Shown piece after piece: positions 2,729 through 23,087 of a DNA stretch of 35,667 nt. A model generated the notes under the pieces. The model saw only the letters and a program-made list of their open reading frames with translations. It searched no databases and was not told where the DNA came from. Position numbers and translations under genes: made by a program. Positions within the stretch are counted from its first letter, which is position 1. The number at the start of each line of letters is the position of its first letter. The DNA comes from a virus: UHGV virus genome UHGV-0093623. The stretch is one strand, 5' to 3'.

Positions 2729-3721
2729 TCAGAATGTCAATTTGTTACTGGATTTACCGAATTTGTCAGACATGGCTCCCAGGCCAGCCAGGACATCGAC
2801 CTGTCGCTGTCGCCCACCTCCGTGAGCGGCTGGCTGTTGCCAGTAATCTTCGAAGTGACGATCGGGTCCAAAGAACGTCGCAGCCTGCTTCACGAACTGT
2901 GTGCCGGTATTTCCTGTAGCACGTACCCAGGCGGCATACCGCTTCACGCCATCAAGCATGGTCTCCGGTTTTATTCCCTCCCTGATACGGGCTTTCCAGG
3001 CTTTGAAGGCTGCTGACTTGGAATTGCCACCAGCACGTTTGGGATATTCCTGCCAGGCCTGTTCAAATTCCGGTGAATATTCCTGTCGGGCAGAACGCGC
3101 TGGCGCAGACGCGTCAGCGGATGCATCAATAGTGTTTTTAGTCTCCGTTGTAATCTCTGTAGTAATCTCTGTATTTGTATCAACATTCGGCGTATCCCCT
3201 GTTCCGTTATGACGTCGGGGGGTGTTCCGTTTTAACGTAATAGCTGTATCGCTGATTGCATTATTGCTGTTACTTTCTGGCGAAACAGAAGAAGGTGTGG
3301 TGATGGCCGCAATTGCCTGTGGGTTGATCCCGACAAACAAAATATTGCTGCATTTCACCCCATCGAGCATTTCCACCGTGCGTAAATCCAGAGTAATAAA
3401 CCCTGCATCGCGCAGACGCTTCAGCGCATCTGCGGTTTCCCTTTTCCCGAAACCAAACTGCTCAGCAAACGCCTGGTAGCTTCTTTGCAGTTTGTCGCCC
3501 TGAAAACGCTTGCGATATCCCAACAACGCTCCGGTGTGCTCATCCCTGACCTCTGTCGGGCGGTACCAGTAAACGATCTCTGAAAGCAGAGCGATAGCCG
3601 TCGCATCCGGACGCCCACTGGGTAGTCGAATATATTTCCACCAGTTCGCAGGTGTAACATTGCCGGAAATATTAATTTGACCAATAGCCATAACTTCCGG
3701 TGTGGGGGCGTAACGGCTCAT
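2729..3721 (-). CDS. phage replication initiator / replisome organiser (lambda O-like position)
   Basis: 330 aa immediately upstream of the loader and helicase genes; two-domain layout with a low-complexity linker carrying tandem DNA repeats; family call is by position and general resemblance. Confidence 0.6.
   Translation of the reverse strand: MSRYAPTPEVMAIGQINISGNVTPANWWKYIRLPSGRPDATAIALLSEIVYWYRPTEVRDEHTGALLGYRKRFQGDKLQRSYQAFAEQFGFGKRETADALKRLRDAGFITLDLRTVEMLDGVKCSNILFVGINPQAIAAITTPSSVSPESNSNNAISDTAITLKRNTPRRHNGTGDTPNVDTNTEITTEITTETKNTIDASADASAPARSARQEYSPEFEQAWQEYPKRAGGNSKSAAFKAWKARIREGIKPETMLDGVKRYAAWVRATGNTGTQFVKQAATFFGPDRHFEDYWQQPAAHGGGRQRQVDVLAGLGAMSDKFGKSSNKLTF
3146..3175. repeat. 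iteron-like tandem 12-bp repeat (gtaatctctgta x2) inside the initiator gene; candidate origin element
   Basis: perfect tandem pair encoding EITTEITT in the linker; lambda ori also lies inside O. Confidence 0.4.
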
Positions 3722-4017
3722 ACAACCTCCTTCCGCGGCATGAGAATTGTGTAGCCACGCGCAGGTTGTAGTCTGGCTTTTGCATCAATAGTAAGCGTTG
3801 CAATTTTTCGGATATGAAGATAACCAGCTCTTTCCAGTGCCAGGGTTTCCCTGAATATCGCTTGCTTAGAACAACAGCAGAAATCAGCAAGCACCTGATG
3901 ATCAATAACTCTCTCGCCTTCACCGTCTGAAGAACCCGACATCAAAACACGCAACATAATTAGGCGCTGAATCGGGTTATCGAAAGCACATCCGCACACA
4001 AACTGAAAACAGTTCAC
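3718..4017 (-). CDS. hypothetical 99-aa protein with probable HTH
   Basis: ORF track; apparent GTG start overlapping the upstream stop; 4-bp overlap with the initiator gene. Confidence 0.45.
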   Translation of the reverse strand: MNCFQFVCGCAFDNPIQRLIMLRVLMSGSSDGEGERVIDHQVLADFCCCSKQAIFRETLALERAGYLHIRKIATLTIDAKARLQPARGYTILMPRKEVV

Positions 4018-4238
4018 GCCACACCTCCCAGACGCTTAAACATTTTTCCAGACAGAAATACCGCCAGAGGGTAACTGATGGTGTAGCTACGCCCCTGTAG
4101 TTCGCACACGACTTTCTGGCTTTCAGCGTTGACTAGGCAAACCCGCAGAACGTGACCGTTGCTGGTGGCGAACCACTGCCCCACACGGGGGCAACGGTTG
4201 TATCGGTGATACAGGGAATTAACGATGTGGCGGATCAT
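4014..4238 (-). CDS. hypothetical 74-aa protein
   Basis: ATGA overlaps on both sides. Confidence 0.4.
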   Translation of the reverse strand: MIRHIVNSLYHRYNRCPRVGQWFATSNGHVLRVCLVNAESQKVVCELQGRSYTISYPLAVFLSGKMFKRLGGVA

Positions 4239-4429
4239 GGACGCACCTCCACCGTAGTTACGTATTTAACCGGGCTACCTTTCATTGAGATGGTTTCACA
4301 CATCTCTGCCGCTTTCAGTTCCGCTGTTTTTCTGGATTTATAGCGACGGTGCCAGACAGATACATCCGTGCGAACTGATACATCGTTTCTGTATTCCGTA
4401 GTGGAGATGATGATTTCGTAACTAATCAT
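4235..4429 (-). CDS. hypothetical 64-aa protein
   Basis: ATGA overlaps on both sides. Confidence 0.4.
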   Translation of the reverse strand: MISYEIIISTTEYRNDVSVRTDVSVWHRRYKSRKTAELKAAEMCETISMKGSPVKYVTTVEVRP

Positions 4430-4977
4430 GGGCGAACCTCCTTGTCAGAACCATTCAGCCTGGAATCAACAAGTGCAGCGCCAAAAACAGCATCACCAAC
4501 ACGGTCGTACAGTTTGCTAGCCAGCGGAGATTCAACGGCCTTAAGCATTGGATAAAGCTGGCTTGTCCAGATTTGATGGATTTCACGCAAATGCAGGTAT
4601 ACGCCTCTGGCGTTTCGTGCGACAGCTGACATATCAACCGCGTCAGCACCAGATAAATTCTTCTCCATCTGGTTAAAGGCGTTGATGTATGCCTCTTTGA
4701 ACCGGGCTGCACGTTTGCCAGTAAAGCCCATAGCAAGGAACGCGAAGCCATCGCGGGTGATTTGATAGCAAGGTAGTTTGCGGCCTGTGCAATCGGTGTA
4801 ATCACTGGGCTGAAAATTCAGCTCAGTGAATTCAACAGAGCACTCAAGCGTCTGGATTTTTTGAATAACGTTTTTGTGCTGCTTGCAGAAATATTCGGCA
4901 ACGACCAAAGAAGAGGTAACAGCCTTCCCATGGATAACATCAATTTTAGGGTGAGTTTGGGTAGGGGTGGTTGCCAT
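4426..4977 (-). CDS. Rha-family phage regulatory protein (start at internal ATG 4977; the ORF stays open to 5274)
   Basis: Rha-like motifs GKAVTSSLVVAEYFCKQHKNVIQKI and YQITRDGFAFLAMGFTGKRAARFKEAY; GAGGA 7 nt upstream of ATG 4977; upstream 100 codons are low-complexity. Confidence 0.7.
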   Translation of the reverse strand: MATTPTQTHPKIDVIHGKAVTSSLVVAEYFCKQHKNVIQKIQTLECSVEFTELNFQPSDYTDCTGRKLPCYQITRDGFAFLAMGFTGKRAARFKEAYINAFNQMEKNLSGADAVDMSAVARNARGVYLHLREIHQIWTSQLYPMLKAVESPLASKLYDRVGDAVFGAALVDSRLNGSDKEVRP

Positions 4978-5296
4978 AGTGACATCCTCATGTGCGAATT
5001 TTGAAAACTCACCACATGGGACGCCAATCACAGAGGTGGTGAGACGTACAGGGTTGGCGTAACCGGTCGCACATGACCCCGGCGCATCTTTCGATGCCCC
5101 TGCACGCCCCACCATAATTTGGATGTGAGGAAACGTGCGCAAAAAAACCGCTGAAGCGCGGTTATGCGCATGTGCGAATTTCAGGACGCCAATCCCGGCA
5201 CCCGCTTTATAAGGTGCGGAGACAGTGTAACGTCCCGAAATTGCAGAATCAATATTTGGTCTTGAAATGATCATATAGCTGCTGATATCTTTAGAA

Positions 5297-5382
5297 CTGT
5301 TCTTGGATGTTTCGGAGCCGTTTTATGCGAAACAGCTCCCCGTTATTGATGTTGAGTGAGCCGGGTTACTCCCGGCTTTTTT
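5297..5382 (+). ncRNA. candidate short antisense RNA (OOP-like) ending at the terminator
   Basis: weak promoter-like TTGAAA-N18-TATCTT near 5262-5291 plus the plus-strand terminator; no plus-strand CDS. Confidence 0.2.
5359..5382 (+). terminator. intrinsic terminator oriented for plus-strand transcription (gccggg-ttact-cccggc + T7)
   Basis: GC stem followed by 7 T on the plus strand; on the minus strand the run precedes the stem, so it is not a minus-strand terminator. Confidence 0.55.
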
Positions 5383-6090
5383 TCACCGCTGCCAACCAAT
5401 AACCTGAAATAACCCCATTTTCGGGTGATACCAGCGAGTCCCTCGCGGTTCTGCTTCCTCCATAACCCGATAAAAAGCAGCCATAAACGGTTCCACAGCA
5501 ACAATTGCGCGACGTGACAACAATCCGTCCGGCGTCATGAACTCATGGGTGTCTGTAGGAATCTGATAGGCGTTCACCAGATTGCGGCATTTATCATCTG
5601 ACAAACCGGTTTTTGCTTTCAGTTGGCGATATCCGGCATAGCCCTCACGAATAGTGCCCTTTTTAATTTGCTCGACTGTTTCAGCAACGTGGCTGACTTT
5701 TTCTTCCACCTGAGTGATCCGTTTCTGCTGACGAACTGCTTCAAGAGCCATCGCGGCAACCATTTCGATTTCGCTCATTGGCTTACGGATCTGTTCTTCC
5801 AGTTCGCGCCAGCGATCTACCAGGCGAGCAGTGAATTCAGGACAGAGCTGTGCGACGACAATGATGCTGTCGCGCTTACCTTGTTCTCCTTCAAACAGGT
5901 AATGCTCATATTGAACTTTAAAACCTAAGTTATTGATTCTTTCGGAAACCTCAATTTGAGGAGACCGGACAACGCCACCTTTGGCTAATGTTTCAATAGT
6001 GCGTTTCACATTGTCATGACGTTTACCCACCAGCTCTGCGATCTCAACGCTGGTCATGGATGCTTTGCCGTTAAAAATTGCGGTGTTCAT
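5383..6090 (-). CDS. Rha-family phage regulatory protein
   Basis: 235 aa; N-terminal SVEIAELVGKRHDNVKRTIETL motif; AGGAGA RBS. Confidence 0.8.
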   Translation of the reverse strand: MNTAIFNGKASMTSVEIAELVGKRHDNVKRTIETLAKGGVVRSPQIEVSERINNLGFKVQYEHYLFEGEQGKRDSIIVVAQLCPEFTARLVDRWRELEEQIRKPMSEIEMVAAMALEAVRQQKRITQVEEKVSHVAETVEQIKKGTIREGYAGYRQLKAKTGLSDDKCRNLVNAYQIPTDTHEFMTPDGLLSRRAIVAVEPFMAAFYRVMEEAEPRGTRWYHPKMGLFQVIGWQR

Positions 6091-6314
6091 TGTTGGTCTC
6101 CTGTGGGCTTGTCATCTTCTGTATTCGCTAGACTTGGGTGTGTATATGGAATGCTCGGATCCAGATGACAAAGAATGGCAACATCCTCCGGAACACCTCG
6201 CGTTTTCCACTTTCCAACACCTTGACTGCCACGAGGCCTTCCTTTCTTTGGGAACCTGCGACCAATAGCGGCATTGGTTTTAAATTGAAATTTTAATATT
6301 TCATAAAGGGTCAT
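6087..6314 (-). CDS. hypothetical 75-aa ORF in the cro position
   Basis: ATG about 30 nt downstream of the predicted rightward promoter; stop overlaps the Rha ATG (ATGA); protein is Lys/Arg/Gly-rich with no obvious HTH. Confidence 0.3.
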   Translation of the reverse strand: MTLYEILKFQFKTNAAIGRRFPKKGRPRGSQGVGKWKTRGVPEDVAILCHLDPSIPYTHPSLANTEDDKPTGDQQ

Positions 6315-6330
6315 TCTTTAGTCTCACACC

Positions 6331-6418
6331 AGATACTTTGTTATCCAACGATGTTAACCGCGGGAATCCAAAGTATCAAGAAATTCTGTTACTTTAGTAT
6401 CAACAGCCATGAGAGGAG
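6331..6418. promoter_or_regulatory. divergent early promoter/operator region (OR-like)
   Basis: minus-strand TTGATA-N17-TAACAT (plus 6374-6379 and 6351-6356); three copies of a GTATCA-core motif (6332-6340 inverted, 6369-6377, 6396-6404); cI RBS GAGAGGAG at 6411-6418. Confidence 0.5.
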
Positions 6419-6425
6419 AAGAAAA

Positions 6426-7082
6426 ATGAAGTCTTTAGGTGAACGTCTCATCAACGCACGGCAAAAAGCTGGGTTAACACAAGATGCGTTGGCTAAAAAA
6501 GCTGGGATCACCAGAGTTGCAATCAGTAAAGCCGAGCAAGGCCTTACAAAAAGTTTCAACGGTGACACCCTTTTTAAAGTTGCAGCTGCACTGCGGTGTT
6601 CACCGCAGTGGCTTCAGAACGGAGATGAAAAAGATAAGCATTGGGAAAATAATGTTAAGAGCTGCCCACAGAGAGACACAGCACACTCTTACCCTGTAAT
6701 TAACTGGGTTCAGGCAGGATTATTCGCAACTTCTGGTGATGACTACAACATGTATGATCAGGATAATTGGAGGCATTCTGTAAAATACGCTGGTGAGAGG
6801 GGGTTCTGGCTGGAAGTGCACGGAGACTCAATGACTTCGCCCGTAGGAATAACATTTCCTGAAGGAATGTCGATCCTTGTCAACCCAGATAAAGAAGTTT
6901 TTTCAGGGTGTTACGTCATCGCCAGAAAAAAATCCACCAATGAAGCAACATTCAAAAAATATATTTCTGACATGGGAAAGGCGTTTCTAAAGCCCCTTAA
7001 TCCACAATATCCAATCATAGAAATGGACAATGATTGCGAAATAGTAGGTGTTGTGGTTGATGCCAGGTGGGATATTTTCTGA
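6426..7082 (+). CDS. CI-like prophage repressor (HTH_XRE + S24 LexA-like peptidase)
   Basis: HTH LTQDALAKKAGITRVAISKAEQG; C-terminal GDSM and downstream Lys (ARKK); start chosen at ATG 6426 with RBS. Confidence 0.85.
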   Translation: MKSLGERLINARQKAGLTQDALAKKAGITRVAISKAEQGLTKSFNGDTLFKVAAALRCSPQWLQNGDEKDKHWENNVKSCPQRDTAHSYPVINWVQAGLFATSGDDYNMYDQDNWRHSVKYAGERGFWLEVHGDSMTSPVGITFPEGMSILVNPDKEVFSGCYVIARKKSTNEATFKKYISDMGKAFLKPLNPQYPIIEMDNDCEIVGVVVDARWDIF

Positions 7083-7108
7083 CCAGACACAAAACACAAA
7101 AAGAAACC

Positions 7109-7181
7109 AAAGTATCAAAAATCACTTGCCACACCTTGATACCTTAGTTACCATAAAACAAAGTTCGTAACTGAGGTATCA
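7109..7181. promoter_or_regulatory. OL-like operator/promoter region downstream of cI
   Basis: GTATCAA at 7112-7118, inverted TTGATAC at 7136-7142, GGTATCA at 7175-7181; TTGCCA-N17-TACCAT at 7126-7154. Confidence 0.4.
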
Positions 7182-7185
7182 TCTC

Positions 7186-7689
7186 ATGATCAATAAAGCT
7201 ACAACTCTTGACTGTCTCGAAGAACTGAAAAACCTCGGCAGCCTCATTACACTAATAGCAAAAGCAACACCTGATGCTACGCTCTCTAGCGATATAGAGT
7301 CATGCGCAGGACTGGCATGGGATATGACAAATAGCATATCCAGAAAGCTATCGTCAGCAATGCTTTTACAGAACAAAAATTCTGCAATCAACAACCGTCT
7401 TCGCACCCAACGCGAAGCCTGCGGCTTAACAACCGCCGAACTCGCCAGGCTGCTCGATCTCGATGAAGAAATTATCATCCAGTGGGAGAGCGGAGAGTAT
7501 GAACCAACTATCAGTATGCTTATCCCACTGGCAAATATTCTTGGCTGCGATCCGATGTGGCTGTTAACTGGTGAGGTTACTCCTCCGGAGCAACCAAAAA
7601 GTGAGGAGCAGCAACACCATGACGCATCTCAACAAGTTTGCCCCTTATCTCGCGAAGCTCTTCTGCGGAAGAACCAATACCAATGGTGA
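7186..7689 (+). CDS. HTH_XRE-domain protein (167 aa), first gene of the leftward operon
   Basis: HTH segment LTTAELARLLDLDEEIIIQWESGEYEPTISMLIPLANILGCDPMWLLTGE; GAGGT RBS; true start could be an internal Met. Confidence 0.6.
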   Translation: MINKATTLDCLEELKNLGSLITLIAKATPDATLSSDIESCAGLAWDMTNSISRKLSSAMLLQNKNSAINNRLRTQREACGLTTAELARLLDLDEEIIIQWESGEYEPTISMLIPLANILGCDPMWLLTGEVTPPEQPKSEEQQHHDASQQVCPLSREALLRKNQYQW

Positions 7690-12561: not shown

Positions 12562-12659
12562 AAACGGTTTGCGGGAAAAGGAGAGTTAAGTAGAATTGCA
12601 GCGGGTGCTTGAGGCTATCTGTCTCAGGCATGAACACCAAAAGGCAGATAGAGAAAAGC

Positions 12660-14510
12660 CCCAGTTAACATTACGCGTCCTGCAAGACGCTTAACATTAA
12701 TCTGAGGCCAATTTCATGCTAGACACATGTAGGTTAGCCTCTTACGTGCCGAAAGGCACGGAGAAGCAGGCTATTGTTAACACCAAGCTGTAATGTCCCC
12801 TTTGAACCATTCTAAAATGTCCCCAGACAATTCTCTGGGGGATTTTTCATGATCAAAGAGACTGTTACGATGAGTCATAAGGAACTCCACCGACTTCAGA
12901 TTATTCAGGAACAAGCTGCGGCACGCATTGGCATTTCTATTCGGCAGGTTAAACGTCTGGTGCAACGGTATAGAAATGAAGGGCCTTCTGCTCTGGTTTC
13001 CCACCGACGTGGAAAGCGTCCTAATAATTCCTTTTCTACTGAATTCAGAGCAACAGTAATTTCACTCCTCAAAGGCCGTTACGCTGATTTTGGACCTACG
13101 TTTGCGTGCGAAAAATTGCGCGAGATACACGGTTTATCTTTATCCGTTGAAACTCTCAGAAAGTGGATGATAGAAGAGGGGTTATGGCGTGAACGCCGTC
13201 GTAAAATTGCCCGTATATATCAACGCCGCATGCGACGACCATCTTACGGTGAACTGATCCAGATTGATGGCTCACCTCATGACTGGTTTGAAAATCGAGG
13301 CCCCAGATGTACACTGATCGTTTTCATTGATGATGCCACCAGTGCGTTGATGGCGTTGCGTTTTGTGCCTGCTGAAACAACCCGGGCTTACATGGAAACC
13401 CTCCGGGGTTACCTTAATGATCATGGCGTACCGCTCGCTCTCTACTCTGATAGACACAGTATATTCAGGGTAAATAACCCAGAGCGGGAAGGTGAGCTGA
13501 CCCAGTTCACTCGTGCGATAAAGACACTGGGCATCGAGCCAATCCATGCCAACAGCCCGCAGGCAAAAGGGCGGGTAGAGCGCGCCAATCAGACACTACA
13601 GGACAGGCTGGTCAAAGAAATGCGGCTTCAGAATATCAGTGATATTGAAACAGCAAATGCATGGTTGCCGACCTTTATTGAAGCCTATAACAACCGGTTC
13701 GCTACGTCGCCTCGTACTACTGATAATGCTCATCTTGATGTGCACCATTCTGAAGAGGAACTGGGTTATATCTTCAGCCTACAGGCGAAGCGCGTTCTGT
13801 CTAAAAATCTCACTTTCCAGTACAAAAGCAGTGCGTTTCAGGTACGCAGTGAGGGCCGGGGATATCGACTTAGGCATTCGGTTGTTACTGTATGCGAGAA
13901 CTTTGACGGTGAAATTAACGTTCTGTATGACGGGAAAGCGCTGGGCTGGGAAAAGTATGTTGATGGCCCGGAGCCTATACCACTGGATGATGAAAAGAGT
14001 GTCCATGAACGAGTGGATAATGCCCGTATTGATTTACGCTCAAAATACTATGTTAAACCTAAAGCTGACCATCCCTGGCTTACGCGCCGAACGCAAAGTC
14101 ATCAGCAAGTTAAGCCCCCGAAGTTACCTAAAAAGAAGCCTGATCCCGATAAAAAAGATTGAAACCAAGATCGATTCGGTTGAGTGCATATCCATTCATA
14201 GGGTAGATTCTTAAGTCGCGTTTCTGGTGTTCATTTTCGGGTGGTTTGTTACTTGTTTTACCGGGGATATGCCAGAAACGCGCTGAGTCAGTCTGGGCGG
14301 TGCGCGTAATGAGGCGTTATGGTAAATAGCCTATGCTAATGTCCGCTAAGAGCAAGAAGCGGAAGTTGGCAGTTTTGTGGACTGTCCCCACAAAAGTGAC
14401 TACAGAAATAGTTGCAATTCATAATTGATCATGGGTTGTCAGTTAAACTCGTGGCGATTTAAATAGACTAATTGGGAGTGCGTCCATTACTTATATCTTG
14501 TAATGTTAAC
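12660..14510. mobile_element. insertion sequence (approximate extent) carrying the DDE transposase
   Basis: candidate 12-bp terminal inverted repeat AGTTAACATTAC near 12663-12674 and its reverse complement near 14499-14510; boundaries not verified. Confidence 0.25.
12849..14162 (+). CDS. DDE-type transposase (N-terminal HTH + integrase-core fold), IS481/ISNCY-like
   Basis: 437 aa; N-terminal HTH region, central acidic residues in IQIDGSPHD and FIDDATS; family assignment tentative. Confidence 0.8.
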   Translation: MIKETVTMSHKELHRLQIIQEQAAARIGISIRQVKRLVQRYRNEGPSALVSHRRGKRPNNSFSTEFRATVISLLKGRYADFGPTFACEKLREIHGLSLSVETLRKWMIEEGLWRERRRKIARIYQRRMRRPSYGELIQIDGSPHDWFENRGPRCTLIVFIDDATSALMALRFVPAETTRAYMETLRGYLNDHGVPLALYSDRHSIFRVNNPEREGELTQFTRAIKTLGIEPIHANSPQAKGRVERANQTLQDRLVKEMRLQNISDIETANAWLPTFIEAYNNRFATSPRTTDNAHLDVHHSEEELGYIFSLQAKRVLSKNLTFQYKSSAFQVRSEGRGYRLRHSVVTVCENFDGEINVLYDGKALGWEKYVDGPEPIPLDDEKSVHERVDNARIDLRSKYYVKPKADHPWLTRRTQSHQQVKPPKLPKKKPDPDKKD

Positions 14511-19481: not shown

Positions 19482-19781
19482 AAAAATTCCTTAATACTGA
19501 TAACTTGGCGCACTATACACACGTTCCTGAAGAAAGCTATAGTTTTTTGATGGGGTTGAAGATGGCTGGATGTCTAAAATAAACATTGCTTCATATGTTC
19601 AACTATGCGTTAATGATTGCGTCGGTTTGAAGAACAGACGATATACGAAGTAGTTTACTAAAGCAGTTCTCATTTCAGGTGTTATTCACTTATTCCTTCT
19701 TTGAGTCTCTCCAATTAAGTACGAAGTCGTTTCTGTTATGCAAACCATTTATGCCGAAAGGCTCAAGTTAAGGAATGTAGA

Positions 19782-19997
19782 ATGTCAAATAAAATGACTG
19801 GTTTAGTAAAATGGTTTAACGCTGATAAAGGTTTCGGCTTTATTTCTCCTGTTGATGGTAGTAAAGATGTGTTTGTGCATTTTTCTGCGATTCAGAATGA
19901 TAATTATCGAACCTTATTTGAAGGTCAAAAGGTTACCTTCTCTATAGAGAGTGGTGCTAAAGGTCCTGCAGCAGCAAATGTCATCATTACTGATTAA
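19782..19997 (+). CDS. cspB: cold-shock protein CspB
   Basis: 71 aa, [21 protein letters not shown]... with RNP motifs. Confidence 0.9.
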
Positions 19998-20277
19998 AAT
20001 TCATCGCTCGTCTGTATACGATAACGAAGAAGGCTGATGCCTGAGTAGAGATACGGACAGAGTAGTGAATATTGGATCTCTTTAATAAAAAGTAAGGAGG
20101 TCCAATACATGAAACAATGGCTAGCATATTTGGCAAAATCTTAATCAGGAAAAGTATGCTAACCATTGTGGTGAAGTGCAGGTTTGCTGCATGAATAGTT
20201 TTACAGCAGAAGCTAACTGCTGGCATGGCAAAACAAAGTGCGTAAGTGGATGACTCCCACAAAAAGCACCACAATCT

Positions 20278-22306: not shown

Positions 22307-22669
22307 GGTAATATTAAATCGGAACATTTACATCGCGGAATGTAAAATTTAAATAAAAAGGACTCTTCCATGAGCCAAAATTCCTGAAATCTTAAGGGTA
22401 AGATAAAAGGTCTTAATCAGAATGACACGTTTTATTAATAAATAAAGCTATTCTTTCATTGCTGTGTTTTTCTTTACAAAAGTAATCCTTGCTATGGGTG
22501 GTTAATCATGCGTTAATGGTGTTCTGGTTTGTTACAAATTTATCTGAAGCAGTCATTGTTATAATTTTATTATTTGTACCTCTTGAGATTTCCTTGTTGG
22601 TTTTTCTCTCTGATATTTTTTTTTCGGACCATTCTGCCCAAGGGCTAATTTCTTCAAAAGGTAATAATT

Positions 22670-22882
22670 ATGTCTAACAAAATGACTGGTTTAGTGAAAT
22701 GGTTTAACCCTGAAAAAGGTTTTGGTTTCATCACGCCGAAAGATGGCAGCAAAGATGTGTTTGTCCATTTCTCAGCAATTCAGAGCAACGATTTCAAAAC
22801 ATTAACTGAGAATCAGGAAGTTGAATTTGGTATTGAGAACGGACCTAAAGGTCCTGCCGCTGTTCATGTAGTGGCGCTTTGA
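22670..22882 (+). CDS. cspI: cold-shock protein CspI
   Basis: 70 aa, [21 protein letters not shown]... Confidence 0.9.
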
Positions 22883-23087
22883 GGTAGACAATATTACAAA
22901 CCATATTCACTTTAGATGCCCGTGTTGTCATGGTTCCCAGTATAGAACATCATCTTTTGATGTTTCTGACATGAATCCTTTCGGGGCAAAATGTATCTTT
23001 TGTAAATCAATGATGATTACATTTGATAATATTTCACAATACTTAAATGCCAGCCGTCTGTCGTTGGATTTAAAAAAGTGAAAATGA

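What the first reader, a model, noticed from the sequence alone, without database searches (positions are those of the whole stretch)
4978..5386. Unusual Rha intergenic region: long open extension, direct repeats and a plus-strand terminator suggesting an antisense RNA
The second Rha gene has a well-placed ATG at 4977, yet the frame stays open for another 100 low-complexity codons to 5274. That upstream stretch contains a direct repeat catgtgcgaattt at about 4989-5001 and 5169-5181. A strong hairpin with a T7 run (5359-5382) is oriented as a terminator for plus-strand transcription, opposite to the operon, and its T-run abuts the stop of the upstream Rha gene. A weak promoter-like sequence at 5262-5291 would give an RNA of about 85 nt, analogous in position to lambda OOP antisense RNA.
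Basis: partly seen in the sequence, partly recalled or inferred. Interest (0 to 1): 0.5.

Follow-up and report, generated by a model that had tools for sequence, protein, structure and literature searches.

The report
Phage antisense-RNA switch guarding an antirepressor gene
The "odd intergenic region" is a known kind of phage RNA switch (the P1 c4 / P4 CI / Salmonella IsrK type) that sits on the minus strand and uses a small antisense RNA to block the ribosome-binding site of the downstream Rha-family antirepressor-like gene. It is not a lambda-OOP-like plus-strand RNA.

Summary
Rfam places a C4 antisense RNA at 5119-5032 (75 bits, cut-off 45) and an IsrK/a1b1 RNA with its own terminator at 5217-5141 (62 bits, cut-off 50).

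The 13-nt direct repeat is the b1/b2 target pair. A second repeat (GATTGGCGT) is a1/a2. Both are complementary to two segments of C4, and b2 covers the Shine-Dalgarno of the Rha gene that starts at 4977.

Across about 200 related loci, the C4 b' loop, b1 and b2 change together in about 25 specificity types. C4 stems stay 99% paired, with 13 of 27 pairs showing compensatory changes. Phage P4 gives the same Rfam pattern.

The 99-codon extension matches Pfam Phage_ASH. In P4 that family lies over the CI RNA, so the match reflects a translated RNA gene. Even so, the frame is never interrupted in 103 variants, although variation shows no codon periodicity. Ribosomes may therefore read through it.

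The plus-strand terminator (5358-5382) and promoter-like site are conserved in a lineage about 74% identical. Strand evidence is mixed and there is no homology to OOP, so this plus-strand RNA remains an unproven side feature.

The parts
5224..5252 (-). Predicted sigma-70 promoter of the module: -35 TTGATT (5252-5247), 17-nt spacer, -10 TACACT (5229-5224). The predicted start is G at 5217.
   Evidence: Read from the sequence. It scores 8 of 12, below the scanner's cut-off. TTGATTCT..N15..TACACTG is invariant in all related loci, and homology to them begins exactly here, at a mosaic boundary near 5255. Rfam isrK model position 1 aligns to 5217. No TSS data exist for this locus.
5141..5217 (-). 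IsrK-like / a1b1 RNA (called seqA in P4). It consists of a 5' hairpin (5217-5198), a hairpin presenting a1 (5197-5182, core GAUUGGCGU 5194-5186), b1 (5181-5166, core UCGCACAUG 5177-5169) and an intrinsic terminator (5163-5146 stem plus U7 to 5141).
   Evidence: Rfam isrK RF01394 scores 62.3 bits against a gathering score of 50. c4-a1b1 RF03163 scores 23.9 bits, below its gathering score of 46.7. The terminator was found and the fold is.
5032..5119 (-). C4-type antisense RNA. It has a 17-bp closing stem and two inner hairpins. The b' loop is UCAUGUGCGA (5076-5067) and a' is ACGCCAACCC (5060-5051). An AUG at 5115-5113 is in frame with the Rha gene.
   Evidence: Rfam C4 RF01695 scores 75.1 bits against a gathering score of 45, E 5e-14, full length. 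MFE is -46.5 kcal/mol, z = -5.1. Across 73 unique homologues, 99.3% of pair cells are paired and 13 of 27 pairs show double compensatory changes.
5021..5029 (-). a2 target site (GAUUGGCGU), complementary to a' of C4.
   Evidence: Exact repeat of a1 (D2). Inverted-repeat relation to 5051-5060 (I5). Duplex -10.4 kcal/mol. a', a1 and a2 change together in L041.
4984..5001 (-). b2 target site (AAAUUCGCACAUGAGGAU), complementary to the b' loop. Its 3' end is the Shine-Dalgarno GAGGA (4989-4985) of the Rha gene.
   Evidence: Repeat of b1 (D1). 10-nt perfect complement to 5067-5076 (I2). Duplex -16.6 kcal/mol. A cognate b'-b2 run of 10-11 nt is kept in 26 of 29 b' hairpin types, against a non-cognate mean of 6.9.
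4426..4977 (-). Regulated cargo gene: a Rha-family (Phage_pRha) regulator or antirepressor-like protein of 183 aa.
   Evidence: Pfam PF09669 at 113 bits, TIGR02681, PHROG transcriptional-regulator and anti-repressor families. In other C4 subfamilies the same position holds ORF6N or Bro-N+P22_AR_C antirepressor-type genes.
4978..5274 (-). 99-codon in-frame open extension, annotated elsewhere as 'ash family protein'. It overlaps the promoter, the IsrK-like RNA, C4 and a2/b2.
   Evidence: ORF. Pfam Phage_ASH scores 42.8 bits over residues 16-96, i.e. 5229-4987. No stop occurs in this frame in 103 of 103 unique variants. Variation shows no codon periodicity.
5262..5382 (+). Candidate plus-strand unit: promoter-like TTGAAA-18-TGaTATCTT (5262-5291), a hairpin region (about 5299-5357) and a terminator hairpin plus T7 (5358-5382). 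Its status is unproven.
   Evidence: Found; fold z = -3.1. It is present in 237 of 5426 E. coli genomes and is kept in a lineage about 74% identical. Strand signals are mixed. There is no Rfam hit and no OOP similarity.
5383..6090 (-). Upstream Rha/Roi-like gene (235 aa). The segment 5256-5400 travels with its 3' flank.
   Evidence: Pfam Phage_pRha at 40 bits. PHROG 63 anti-repressor Ant. Annotated as Roi in PhiR49_2. Linkage is shown.

Best explanation
The segment from about 5255 to 4975 on the minus strand is an immI-type antisense-RNA control cassette. It is the same kind as c4 with a1b1/a2b2 in phages P1 and P7, seqA-CI-seqC in satellite phage P4, and IsrK-STnc1160(orf45)-anrP in Salmonella Gifsy-1.

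**Proposed mechanism**
1. A conserved promoter (TTGATT-17-TACACT) starts transcription near 5217.
2. Most transcripts stop at the intrinsic terminator (5163-5141). This yields an IsrK-like RNA of about 77 nt that displays a1 and b1.
3. Read-through transcripts contain the C4 RNA (5119-5032), which in P1 and P4 is cut out by RNase P.
4. Two exposed segments of C4, b' and a', pair with b2 and a2 just downstream. b2 includes the Shine-Dalgarno of the Rha-family gene at 4977, so C4 blocks its translation. By analogy with P1 and P4, this may also expose the transcript to premature termination.
5. The upstream a1/b1 copy carries the same target sequences. It can pair with C4 in cis or in trans and so act as a competitor that relieves the block, as IsrK does for anrP.

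**Shown and inferred**
- Shown here: family membership, the anatomy, the complementarities and their co-variation.
- Inferred from the characterised relatives: processing, the direction of regulation, and the antirepressor role of the Rha protein.
For: **Family membership**
- Rfam hits exceed curated cut-offs for C4 (75.1 against 45) and isrK (62.3 against 50), in the correct order and on the correct strand.

**Repeats and complementarity**
- Two direct repeats flank C4, and each has a reverse complement inside C4.
- All three window-wide copies of CATGTGCGA lie in this element.
- Predicted duplexes range from -10 to -17 kcal/mol.
- b2 overlaps GAGGA, 7 nt upstream of the ATG.

**Co-variation across related loci**
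- b', b1 and b2 change together in at least 25 specificity types. Cognate runs are 9-11 nt, against about 7 nt for non-cognate pairs.
- a', a1 and a2 change together in L041.
- C4 helices are 99.3% paired, with 13 of 27 pairs compensatory.

**Comparators and literature**
- Phage P4, whose immunity factor is the CI RNA, gives the same isrK + C4 + c4-a1b1 pattern.
- Other C4 loci precede ORF6N or Bro-N/P22_AR_C antirepressor genes. One class reproduces the Gifsy-1 45-codon ORF with the AUGA overlap.
- PMC4825925 describes IsrK, orf45, anrP and the processed STnc1160 RNA.
- PMC3632133 states that IsrK and C4 are homologues of P4 seqA and CI, and that they occur in lambdoid prophages.
- PMC5499578 lists the P4 CI RNA among RNase P substrates related to 4.5S RNA and cites the report that the P1/P7 C4 precursor is an RNase P substrate.
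Against: - There are no expression data for this locus. The promoter scores only 8 of 12 against consensus and was not called by the scanner.
- The c4-a1b1 model is below its gathering score (23.9 against 46.7), although isrK covers the same segment.
- The IsrK-like fold alone is not unusually stable (z = -1.7).
- The frame across the whole cassette is kept open, with start codons upstream of the promoter in many phages. A purely non-coding leader does not predict this.
- The downstream gene is Rha-family, and its antirepressor activity is assumed rather than shown.
- In Gifsy-1 the published model stresses IsrK-induced refolding of the mRNA rather than C4 titration, so the exact logic may differ.
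Confidence: 0.88

Rival explanations
1. A weak plus-strand promoter at 5262-5291 and the terminator at 5358-5382 produce an RNA of about 87 nt. This RNA is antisense to the operon transcript between the two Rha genes and acts like lambda OOP or P22 sar. At best this would be an additional feature next to the C4 cassette, not the explanation of the repeats or the open frame.
For: - The terminator is strong (8-bp stem with 6 G-C pairs, then T7) and is oriented only for the plus strand.
- In a lineage about 74% identical, several features are all kept while the sequence between them diverges: -35 TTGAAA, the 18-nt spacer, TGn-TATyTT, the terminator stem and the T-run.
- Both lineages fold into the same two-hairpin shape on the plus strand (z = -3.1 and -5.4). 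The outer stem uses G.U pairs that are possible only on the plus strand.
- One A->G polymorphism keeps pairing only on the plus strand.
Against: - Promoter-like matches of this quality are at chance frequency.
- There is no Rfam family at E<=1 and no similarity to OOP (alignment score 16 against a shuffle mean of 15).
- Only two lineages exist, so covariation power is minimal.
- In the window lineage the inner hairpin is a continuous 10-bp stem on the minus strand, but is interrupted on the plus strand. Two G->A polymorphisms keep pairing only on the minus strand.
- The RNA would not cover any ribosome-binding site, since it ends about 24 nt from the 5274 ATG and stops at the Rha1 stop codon.
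- The conserved -35 overlaps codons 3-4 of the conserved ORF start.
Confidence: 0.3
2. The region is simply protein-coding. The true gene is the 282-aa ORF 5274-4426, encoding an 'Ash' N-terminal domain fused to Rha. The repeats are then a repeated peptide (KFAHAH / KFAHED), and the RNA matches are incidental.
For: - Pfam Phage_ASH scores 42.8 bits against a cut-off of 26.
- PGAP and GenBank annotate the long ORF as 'ash family protein'.
- The frame has no stop in 103 of 103 variants, while the other frames carry 2.9 and 5.1 stops on average.
- Random complementary 9-mer triples would keep the frame open only 47% of the time.
- Among 44 distinct b1-terminator-spacer segments, 0 have a stop in this frame, against 27 and 34 in the other two frames.
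- SD+ATG starts lie 16-22 nt upstream of the module in independent contexts.
- Tandem copies overlap by ATGA.
Against: - Variation shows no third-position excess (0.209/0.209/0.218), whereas the adjoining Rha gene does (0.282/0.219/0.382).
- Changes follow RNA pairing, with three-way b'/b1/b2 co-variation and compensatory stem changes.
- Phage_ASH in P4 falls on the obsolete 'cI 137 aa' ORF exactly over the CI RNA.
- Other C4 subfamilies have the frame closed within 1-20 codons.
- In Gifsy-1 the nucleotide sequence of orf45 is conserved but the peptide is not.
- In this window the 5274 ATG has no recognisable Shine-Dalgarno.
- Translation of the frame may well occur, but a folded Ash protein domain that replaces the RNA function is unlikely.
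Confidence: 0.05
3. The direct repeats are DNA operators bound by CI or by one of the Rha proteins.
For: Two repeat pairs lie 165-180 bp apart near regulatory genes. Rha proteins carry winged-helix DNA-binding domains.
Against: - Each repeat has a third, inverted copy located in single-stranded loops of a structured RNA.
- The three copies co-vary with G.U tolerance, for example b1 UCAAUAUAG against b2 UCAACAUAG, both pairing with the same b'. This is an RNA-pairing signature, not a DNA one.
- The repeats have no dyad symmetry.
Confidence: 0.03

Closest known systems
Phage P1/P7 immI region: c4 antisense RNA with a1/b1 and a2/b2 targets, then icd and ant (Citron & Schuster 1990; Rfam RF01695 and RF03163)
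   Same: A structured antisense RNA of about 80 nt lies between two copies of a bipartite target. The downstream copy (b2) covers a ribosome-binding site ahead of an antirepressor-type gene. Many interchangeable specificities exist, as in P1/P7 heteroimmunity. The Rfam C4 model matches at full length.
   Different: No icd-like small ORF intervenes, so b2 masks the SD of the Rha-family gene directly. The cassette sits inside the early-right operon of a lambdoid prophage that also has CI/Cro. The whole cassette lies in an uninterrupted reading frame. The P1 sequence itself was not examined here; the comparison rests on Rfam and prior knowledge.
Satellite phage P4 immunity: seqA - CI RNA (seqB) - seqC
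   Same: The same three Rfam matches occur in the same order and with similar scores: isrK 60.8, C4 74.9, c4-a1b1 44.1. Pfam Phage_ASH falls on the RNA region in both. Both carry an open frame running from the RNA into the downstream genes.
   Different: In P4 the CI RNA causes premature termination of the replication operon and is the sole immunity factor. Here a protein CI repressor is also present, and the cargo is a Rha protein. The P4 ORF does not span seqA, whereas here the frame spans the a1b1 RNA and its terminator.
Salmonella Gifsy-1 isrK-orf45-anrP locus (PMC4825925)
   Same: The isrK model passes its gathering score. Shared features are a promoter, a short terminated sRNA, read-through into a C4-like processed RNA (STnc1160), and then an antirepressor-like gene. 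The AUG at the 5' end of C4 (5115) corresponds to the orf45 start.
   Different: In Gifsy-1, orf45 ends with a stop that overlaps the anrP start (AUGA), and AnrP has an ORF6N domain. Here the equivalent 46 codons run in frame into a Rha-domain gene with no stop, and the frame is also open upstream through the IsrK-like RNA.
Lambda OOP RNA and P22 sar RNA (cis-antisense RNAs in immunity regions)
   Same: Only the candidate plus-strand unit at 5262-5382 resembles these. It would be a short RNA with its own promoter and a strong terminator, opposite to the early operon and next to the gene that follows cro.
   Different: There is no sequence similarity to OOP. The candidate would overlap only untranslated spacer, not a coding 3' end as OOP does or a ribosome-binding site as sar does. 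Its expression is unproven.

Membership tests
C4 antisense RNA (Rfam RF01695; P1/P7 c4, P4 CI) | Sequence and structure match the covariance model above the curated gathering score | tested here: met
   75.1 bits against 45, model positions 1-87 of 87, at 5119-5032 on the minus strand.
C4 antisense RNA (Rfam RF01695; P1/P7 c4, P4 CI) | A long closing stem plus two inner hairpins, supported by compensatory changes in relatives | tested here: met
   MFE -46.5 kcal/mol, z = -5.1. Across 73 unique homologues, 99.3% of cells are paired and 13 of 27 pairs are compensatory. The outermost pairs were fixed by the search pattern and are uninformative.
C4 antisense RNA (Rfam RF01695; P1/P7 c4, P4 CI) | Two exposed segments (a', b') complementary to a bipartite target (a2, b2) downstream, with b2 over a ribosome-binding site | tested here: met
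   b' 5076-5067 pairs with b2 4997-4988 (10 nt). a' 5060-5051 pairs with a2 5029-5021. SD GAGGA at 4989-4985 lies inside b2.
C4 antisense RNA (Rfam RF01695; P1/P7 c4, P4 CI) | Excised from a longer precursor by RNase P, and represses the downstream gene in vivo | not testable with these tools
   Known for P1/P7 and P4; references are listed in PMC5499578. No expression data exist for this locus.
isrK / c4-a1b1 (Rfam RF01394, RF03163; P4 seqA) | Covariance-model match upstream of C4, carrying a second copy of the targets and ending in an intrinsic terminator | tested here: met
   isrK scores 62.3 against 50 at 5217-5141. The terminator is at 5163-5146 plus U7. a1 and b1 repeats are. The narrower c4-a1b1 model is below its cut-off (23.9 against 46.7).
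isrK / c4-a1b1 (Rfam RF01394, RF03163; P4 seqA) | Own promoter directly upstream, giving both short and read-through transcripts | tested here: inconclusive
   An invariant TTGATT-17-TACACT is correctly placed relative to model position 1. It matches consensus at only 8 of 12 positions, and no TSS data exist.
Pfam PF10554 Phage_ASH ('Ash protein family') | HMM match above the gathering score | tested here: met
   42.8 bits against 26, residues 16-96 of the extension.
Pfam PF10554 Phage_ASH ('Ash protein family') | Evolves as a protein, with codon-periodic constraint and a function carried by the polypeptide | tested here: not met
   There is no third-position excess and variation follows RNA pairing. 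In P4 the family maps onto the CI RNA gene. The frame is nevertheless kept open, so translation as such is not excluded.
Lambda OOP-type antisense RNA | Homology to OOP | tested here: not met
   The local alignment score is 16, against a shuffle mean of 15.3 and maximum of 23.
Lambda OOP-type antisense RNA | A short transcript from its own promoter, opposite to the early operon, overlapping the 3' end of the preceding gene's coding sequence | tested here: inconclusive
   A promoter-like site and a terminator are present and conserved in two lineages. The RNA would stop at the Rha1 stop codon and overlap no coding sequence. Transcription cannot be tested here.

The most novel reading that the evidence does not exclude
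In this lambdoid subfamily the whole RNA cassette (promoter, IsrK-like RNA with its terminator, C4, and a2/b2) is embedded in a reading frame that selection keeps free of stop codons, without conserving the peptide.

**Proposed mechanism.** Ribosomes that start upstream of the internal promoter read through the cassette. They start at 5274 here, and at strong SD+ATG sites or ATGA overlaps in relatives. These ribosomes load only on transcripts coming from PR. As they pass, they melt the terminator and the C4/target structures. This carries expression into an N-terminally extended Rha protein and on to the replication genes. Transcripts from the internal promoter are untranslated and instead yield the regulatory RNAs.

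**Consequence.** The same DNA would work as an RNA switch in one transcriptional mode and as a translated spacer in the other.
Probability: 0.35. Interest if true: 0.6.

Novelty: new member of a known kind. Interest (0 to 1): 0.33.

Why it matters
- **Annotation.** The 'second Rha gene with a 100-codon extension', labelled 'ash family protein' in hundreds of E. coli genomes, is really a C4/IsrK antisense-RNA cassette controlling a Rha-family, probably antirepressor, gene.
- **Biology of Stx-type prophages.** These lambdoid prophages carry a second, RNA-based immunity layer beside CI/Cro. It comes in at least 25 interchangeable specificities, which could affect induction and cross-immunity among co-resident prophages.
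- **Database caution.** Pfam Phage_ASH tracks an RNA gene, not a characterised protein.
- **Possible new finding.** The frame across the cassette is maintained by selection. If confirmed, this would be a neat case of an RNA regulator and a translated frame sharing the same nucleotides.

Tried and rejected
- **OOP homology.** Lambda 38594-38694 was aligned to 5255-5390 and scored no better than shuffles.
- **Plus-strand small ORF.** The 31-aa ORF at 5307-5402 runs through the terminator hairpin and has no support, so it was dropped.
- **More lineages for the plus-strand unit.** A phage search found 9 records, all at least 99% identical. E. coli genomes and IMG/VR gave only two lineages. This is too few for covariation, and the polymorphisms conflict.
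- **IS-disrupted locus.** An IS-disrupted copy was uninformative.
- **Is P4 'Ash' the epsilon protein?** PMC8628076 says so, but P4 epsilon matches PF25738, while PF10554 matches the old cI ORF over the CI RNA.
- **BLASTP of Rha2 against cargo proteins of other C4 subfamilies.** There were no hits. The cargo differs, although it is always antirepressor-type.
- **Not run.** Structure prediction of the Ash region was skipped. A deep alignment would carry RNA-driven covariation, so the result would be hard to interpret.
Full report
**Context**

The window is a lambdoid prophage, 99% identical across this region to Escherichia phage PhiR49_2. On the plus strand lies a CI-type repressor at 6426-7082, with HTH_3 and Peptidase_S24 domains. 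On the minus strand lie, in order:
- a small cro-position gene (6314-6087), annotated Cro in PhiR49_2;
- a Rha/Roi-like gene (6090-5383);
- the questioned spacer;
- a second Rha-family gene (4977-4426);
- three small ORFs;
- replication genes.

**1. Observation**

- The minus-strand ATG at 4977 is preceded by GAGGA at 4989-4985.
- The frame stays open for 99 further codons, up to the ATG at 5274.
- The direct repeat lies at 4984-5001 and 5164-5181, with a 13-nt exact core.
- A plus-strand hairpin (5358-5378) plus T7 ends at 5382, next to the TGA of the upstream gene.
- A 9-of-12 promoter-like site lies at 5262-5291. Such matches are no more frequent here than in shuffles.

- A second exact repeat, GGACGCCAATC, occurs at 5019-5029 and 5184-5194.
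- Each repeat has a reverse-complement copy lying between the two direct copies, at 5067-5076 and 5051-5060.

CATGTGCGA occurs three times in the 35.7-kb window, all within this element.

**2. What it is**

An Rfam scan of 3500-7500 gave three minus-strand hits and nothing on the plus strand:

| Family | Coordinates | Score | Gathering score |
|---|---|---|---|
| C4 antisense RNA | 5119-5032 | 75.1 bits (full model) | 45 |
| isrK | 5217-5141 | 62.3 bits | 50 |
| c4-a1b1 | 5230-5178 | 23.9 bits | 46.7 |

C4 and isrK also pass their gathering scores in a whole-window scan.

Read 5' to 3' on the minus strand, the anatomy is as follows.
1. Promoter TTGATT-17-TACACT (5252-5224).
2. An RNA starting near 5217, made of a 5' hairpin, a hairpin presenting a1 (GAUUGGCGU, 5194-5186), b1 (UCGCACAUG, 5177-5169) and an intrinsic terminator (5163-5141).
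3. C4, with a 17-bp closing stem, the b' loop UCAUGUGCGA (5076-5067) and a' ACGCCAACCC (5060-5051).
4. a2 (5029-5021).
5. b2 (5001-4984), whose 3' end is the Shine-Dalgarno of the Rha gene.

C4 folds at -46.5 kcal/mol, z = -5.1. Predicted b'-b2, b'-b1, a'-a2 and a'-a1 duplexes are -16.6, -17.1, -10.4 and -16.9 kcal/mol.

**3. Comparative evidence**

A protein-pattern scan fetched 80 related loci, and a frame-blind nucleotide pattern on the C4 ends fetched about 120 more.
- Homology to the window begins at about 5255, exactly at the -35, in loci whose upstream sequence is unrelated. The cassette plus its cargo gene is therefore a mobile module.
- The alignment shows the C4 b' loop, b1 and b2 changing together.
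- Among 29 distinct b' hairpins, the cognate b'-b2 run is 10-11 nt in 26 and b'-b1 is typically 9 nt. Non-cognate pairs average about 7 nt.
- b1 often differs from b2 by changes that convert a Watson-Crick pair to G.U. This is a signature of RNA pairing, not of protein binding.
- a', a1 and a2 co-vary in L041.
- Across 73 unique C4 sequences, 99.3% of helix cells are paired, and 13 of 27 pairs show changes on both sides.

Phage P4, whose immunity factor is the processed CI RNA, gives the same three Rfam hits in the same order.

In other C4 subfamilies the downstream gene carries either an ORF6N domain or Bro-N plus P22_AR_C. One class reproduces the Gifsy-1 arrangement, a 45-codon ORF starting at the AUG in the C4 5' strand and ending in AUGA (PMC4825925).

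Barquist et al. (PMC3632133) already state that IsrK and C4 are the homologues of P4 seqA and CI RNA, and that lambdoid prophages carry such systems.

**4. Mechanism**

These steps are inferred from the characterised relatives, apart from the pairings, which are shown here.
- The internal promoter makes a short IsrK-like RNA and a read-through transcript.
- C4 is released from the read-through transcript. In P1/P7 and P4 this is done by RNase P (references in PMC5499578).
- C4 pairs with a2 and b2 and occludes the Shine-Dalgarno of the Rha-family gene, keeping this probable antirepressor off.
- The a1/b1 copy carries the same targets and can compete for C4. This matches the finding that IsrK supplied in trans switches on orf45-anrP translation.

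**5. The open frame**

The translated extension matches Pfam Phage_ASH at 42.8 bits (cut-off 26) over residues 16-96, which is the span from a1b1 to b2. In P4 the same family hits the obsolete 'cI gene product (137 aa)' ORF right over the CI RNA, while the real epsilon protein matches a different family. Phage_ASH therefore reflects translation of a conserved RNA gene.

Variation in the extension has no codon periodicity: mean minor-allele frequency is 0.209/0.209/0.218 by codon position. The adjoining Rha gene gives 0.282/0.219/0.382.

The frame is nevertheless not open by accident.
- In 103 unique variants of this 83-nt C4 subfamily, taken from both scans including the frame-blind nucleotide one, it has zero stops over 96 codons. 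The other frames average 2.9 and 5.1 stops.
- A random complementary 9-mer triple would keep it open only 47% of the time, yet about 25 types all do.
- Of 44 distinct b1-terminator-spacer segments, none has a stop in this frame, against 27 and 34 in the other two frames. The same holds within 11-12 clusters below 75% identity.
- In-frame ATGs with strong SD sit 16-22 nt upstream of the -35 in several unrelated upstream contexts. In other contexts the ORF begins more than 100 codons upstream; in cdtI, SfV and Lys8385Vzw its start overlaps the stop of the preceding gene.
- One contig has three tandem cassettes, each in a 219-220-aa ORF joined to the next by an ATGA overlap.
- Other C4 subfamilies have the frame closed.

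I read this as selection for ribosome transit rather than for a protein domain. That reading is the novel case, not the main claim. In this window the 5274 ATG lacks a visible Shine-Dalgarno.

**6. The plus-strand unit**

The segment 5256-5400 travels with the 3' end of the Roi-like gene and occurs in 9 phage records and 237 of 5426 E. coli genomes.

Only one diverged lineage exists, at about 74% identity. It keeps TTGAAA, the 18-nt spacer, TGn-TATyTT, the terminator stem and the T-run. It replaces the middle hairpin with a different sequence that still folds.

Strand evidence conflicts.
- For the plus strand: the outer stem needs G.U pairs that are possible only on that strand.
- For the minus strand: the inner hairpin of the window lineage is a better continuous stem there, and two G->A polymorphisms preserve pairing only there.
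- For the plus strand again: one A->G polymorphism in the other lineage does the opposite.

There is no Rfam match and no similarity to lambda OOP. The RNA would overlap neither a coding region nor a ribosome-binding site. It remains a plausible but unproven small RNA, or simply a terminator that blocks antisense transcription toward cro and cI.

**7. Verdict**

The finding is real, but its core is an instance of a known system that Rfam recognises above curated thresholds. It is a new, uncharacterised member with a Rha-family cargo, sitting in the early-right operon of a lambdoid prophage of the kind that also occurs among Stx-converting phages.

What lifts it above routine is the evidence that the cassette lies in a frame kept open by selection, together with the diversity of about 25 specificity types.

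Noticed in passing
window 19621-20013 and 22523-22909 (+): Two cspA thermoregulator 5'UTR matches (Rfam RF01766; 158.8 and 111.9 bits against a gathering score of 78). These imply two cold-shock-protein-like genes in the prophage.
   Followed up: no
window 12603-12775 (+): A sok antitoxin RNA match (RF01794; 110.5 bits against a gathering score of 59). This suggests a hok/sok-type type I toxin-antitoxin locus.
   Followed up: no
L112 9289-11266 (same contig as L041); L152 7843-8578: Three tandem promoter-a1b1-C4-a2b2-Rha(N-terminal) units lie 656 nt apart. Each has a different b' specificity and sits in a 219-220-aa ORF joined to the next by a 4-nt ATGA overlap. L152 carries two copies.
   Followed up: partly
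L205 (phage P4) 8168-8584 and 7888-8175: Pfam PF10554 'Phage_ASH' matches the obsolete P4 'cI gene product' ORF over the CI RNA, while P4 epsilon matches PF25738. A P4-satellite survey (PMC8628076) used PF10554 as its epsilon marker, so that marker actually tracks the CI/C4 RNA locus.
   Followed up: yes
window ~5255: There is a sharp mosaic boundary. Loci with unrelated upstream sequence become homologous to the window exactly at the -35 of the cassette promoter. Conversely, the 5256-5400 segment is found joined to cassettes of several different b' specificities.
   Followed up: partly
window 3718-4017 and 2729-3721 (-): A 99-aa ORF matches only the N-terminal 93 positions of a 223-position replication-initiation PHROG. 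It abuts a 330-aa O-like replication initiator with a 4-nt overlap. This may be a split or modular initiator.
   Followed up: no
L209 (E. coli ETEC4090) 1397-2443: An IS (integrase-core transposase) is inserted immediately upstream of the plus-strand -35-like TTGAAA. It separates the Roi-like gene and its 3' flank from the ash/Rha cassette.
   Followed up: no
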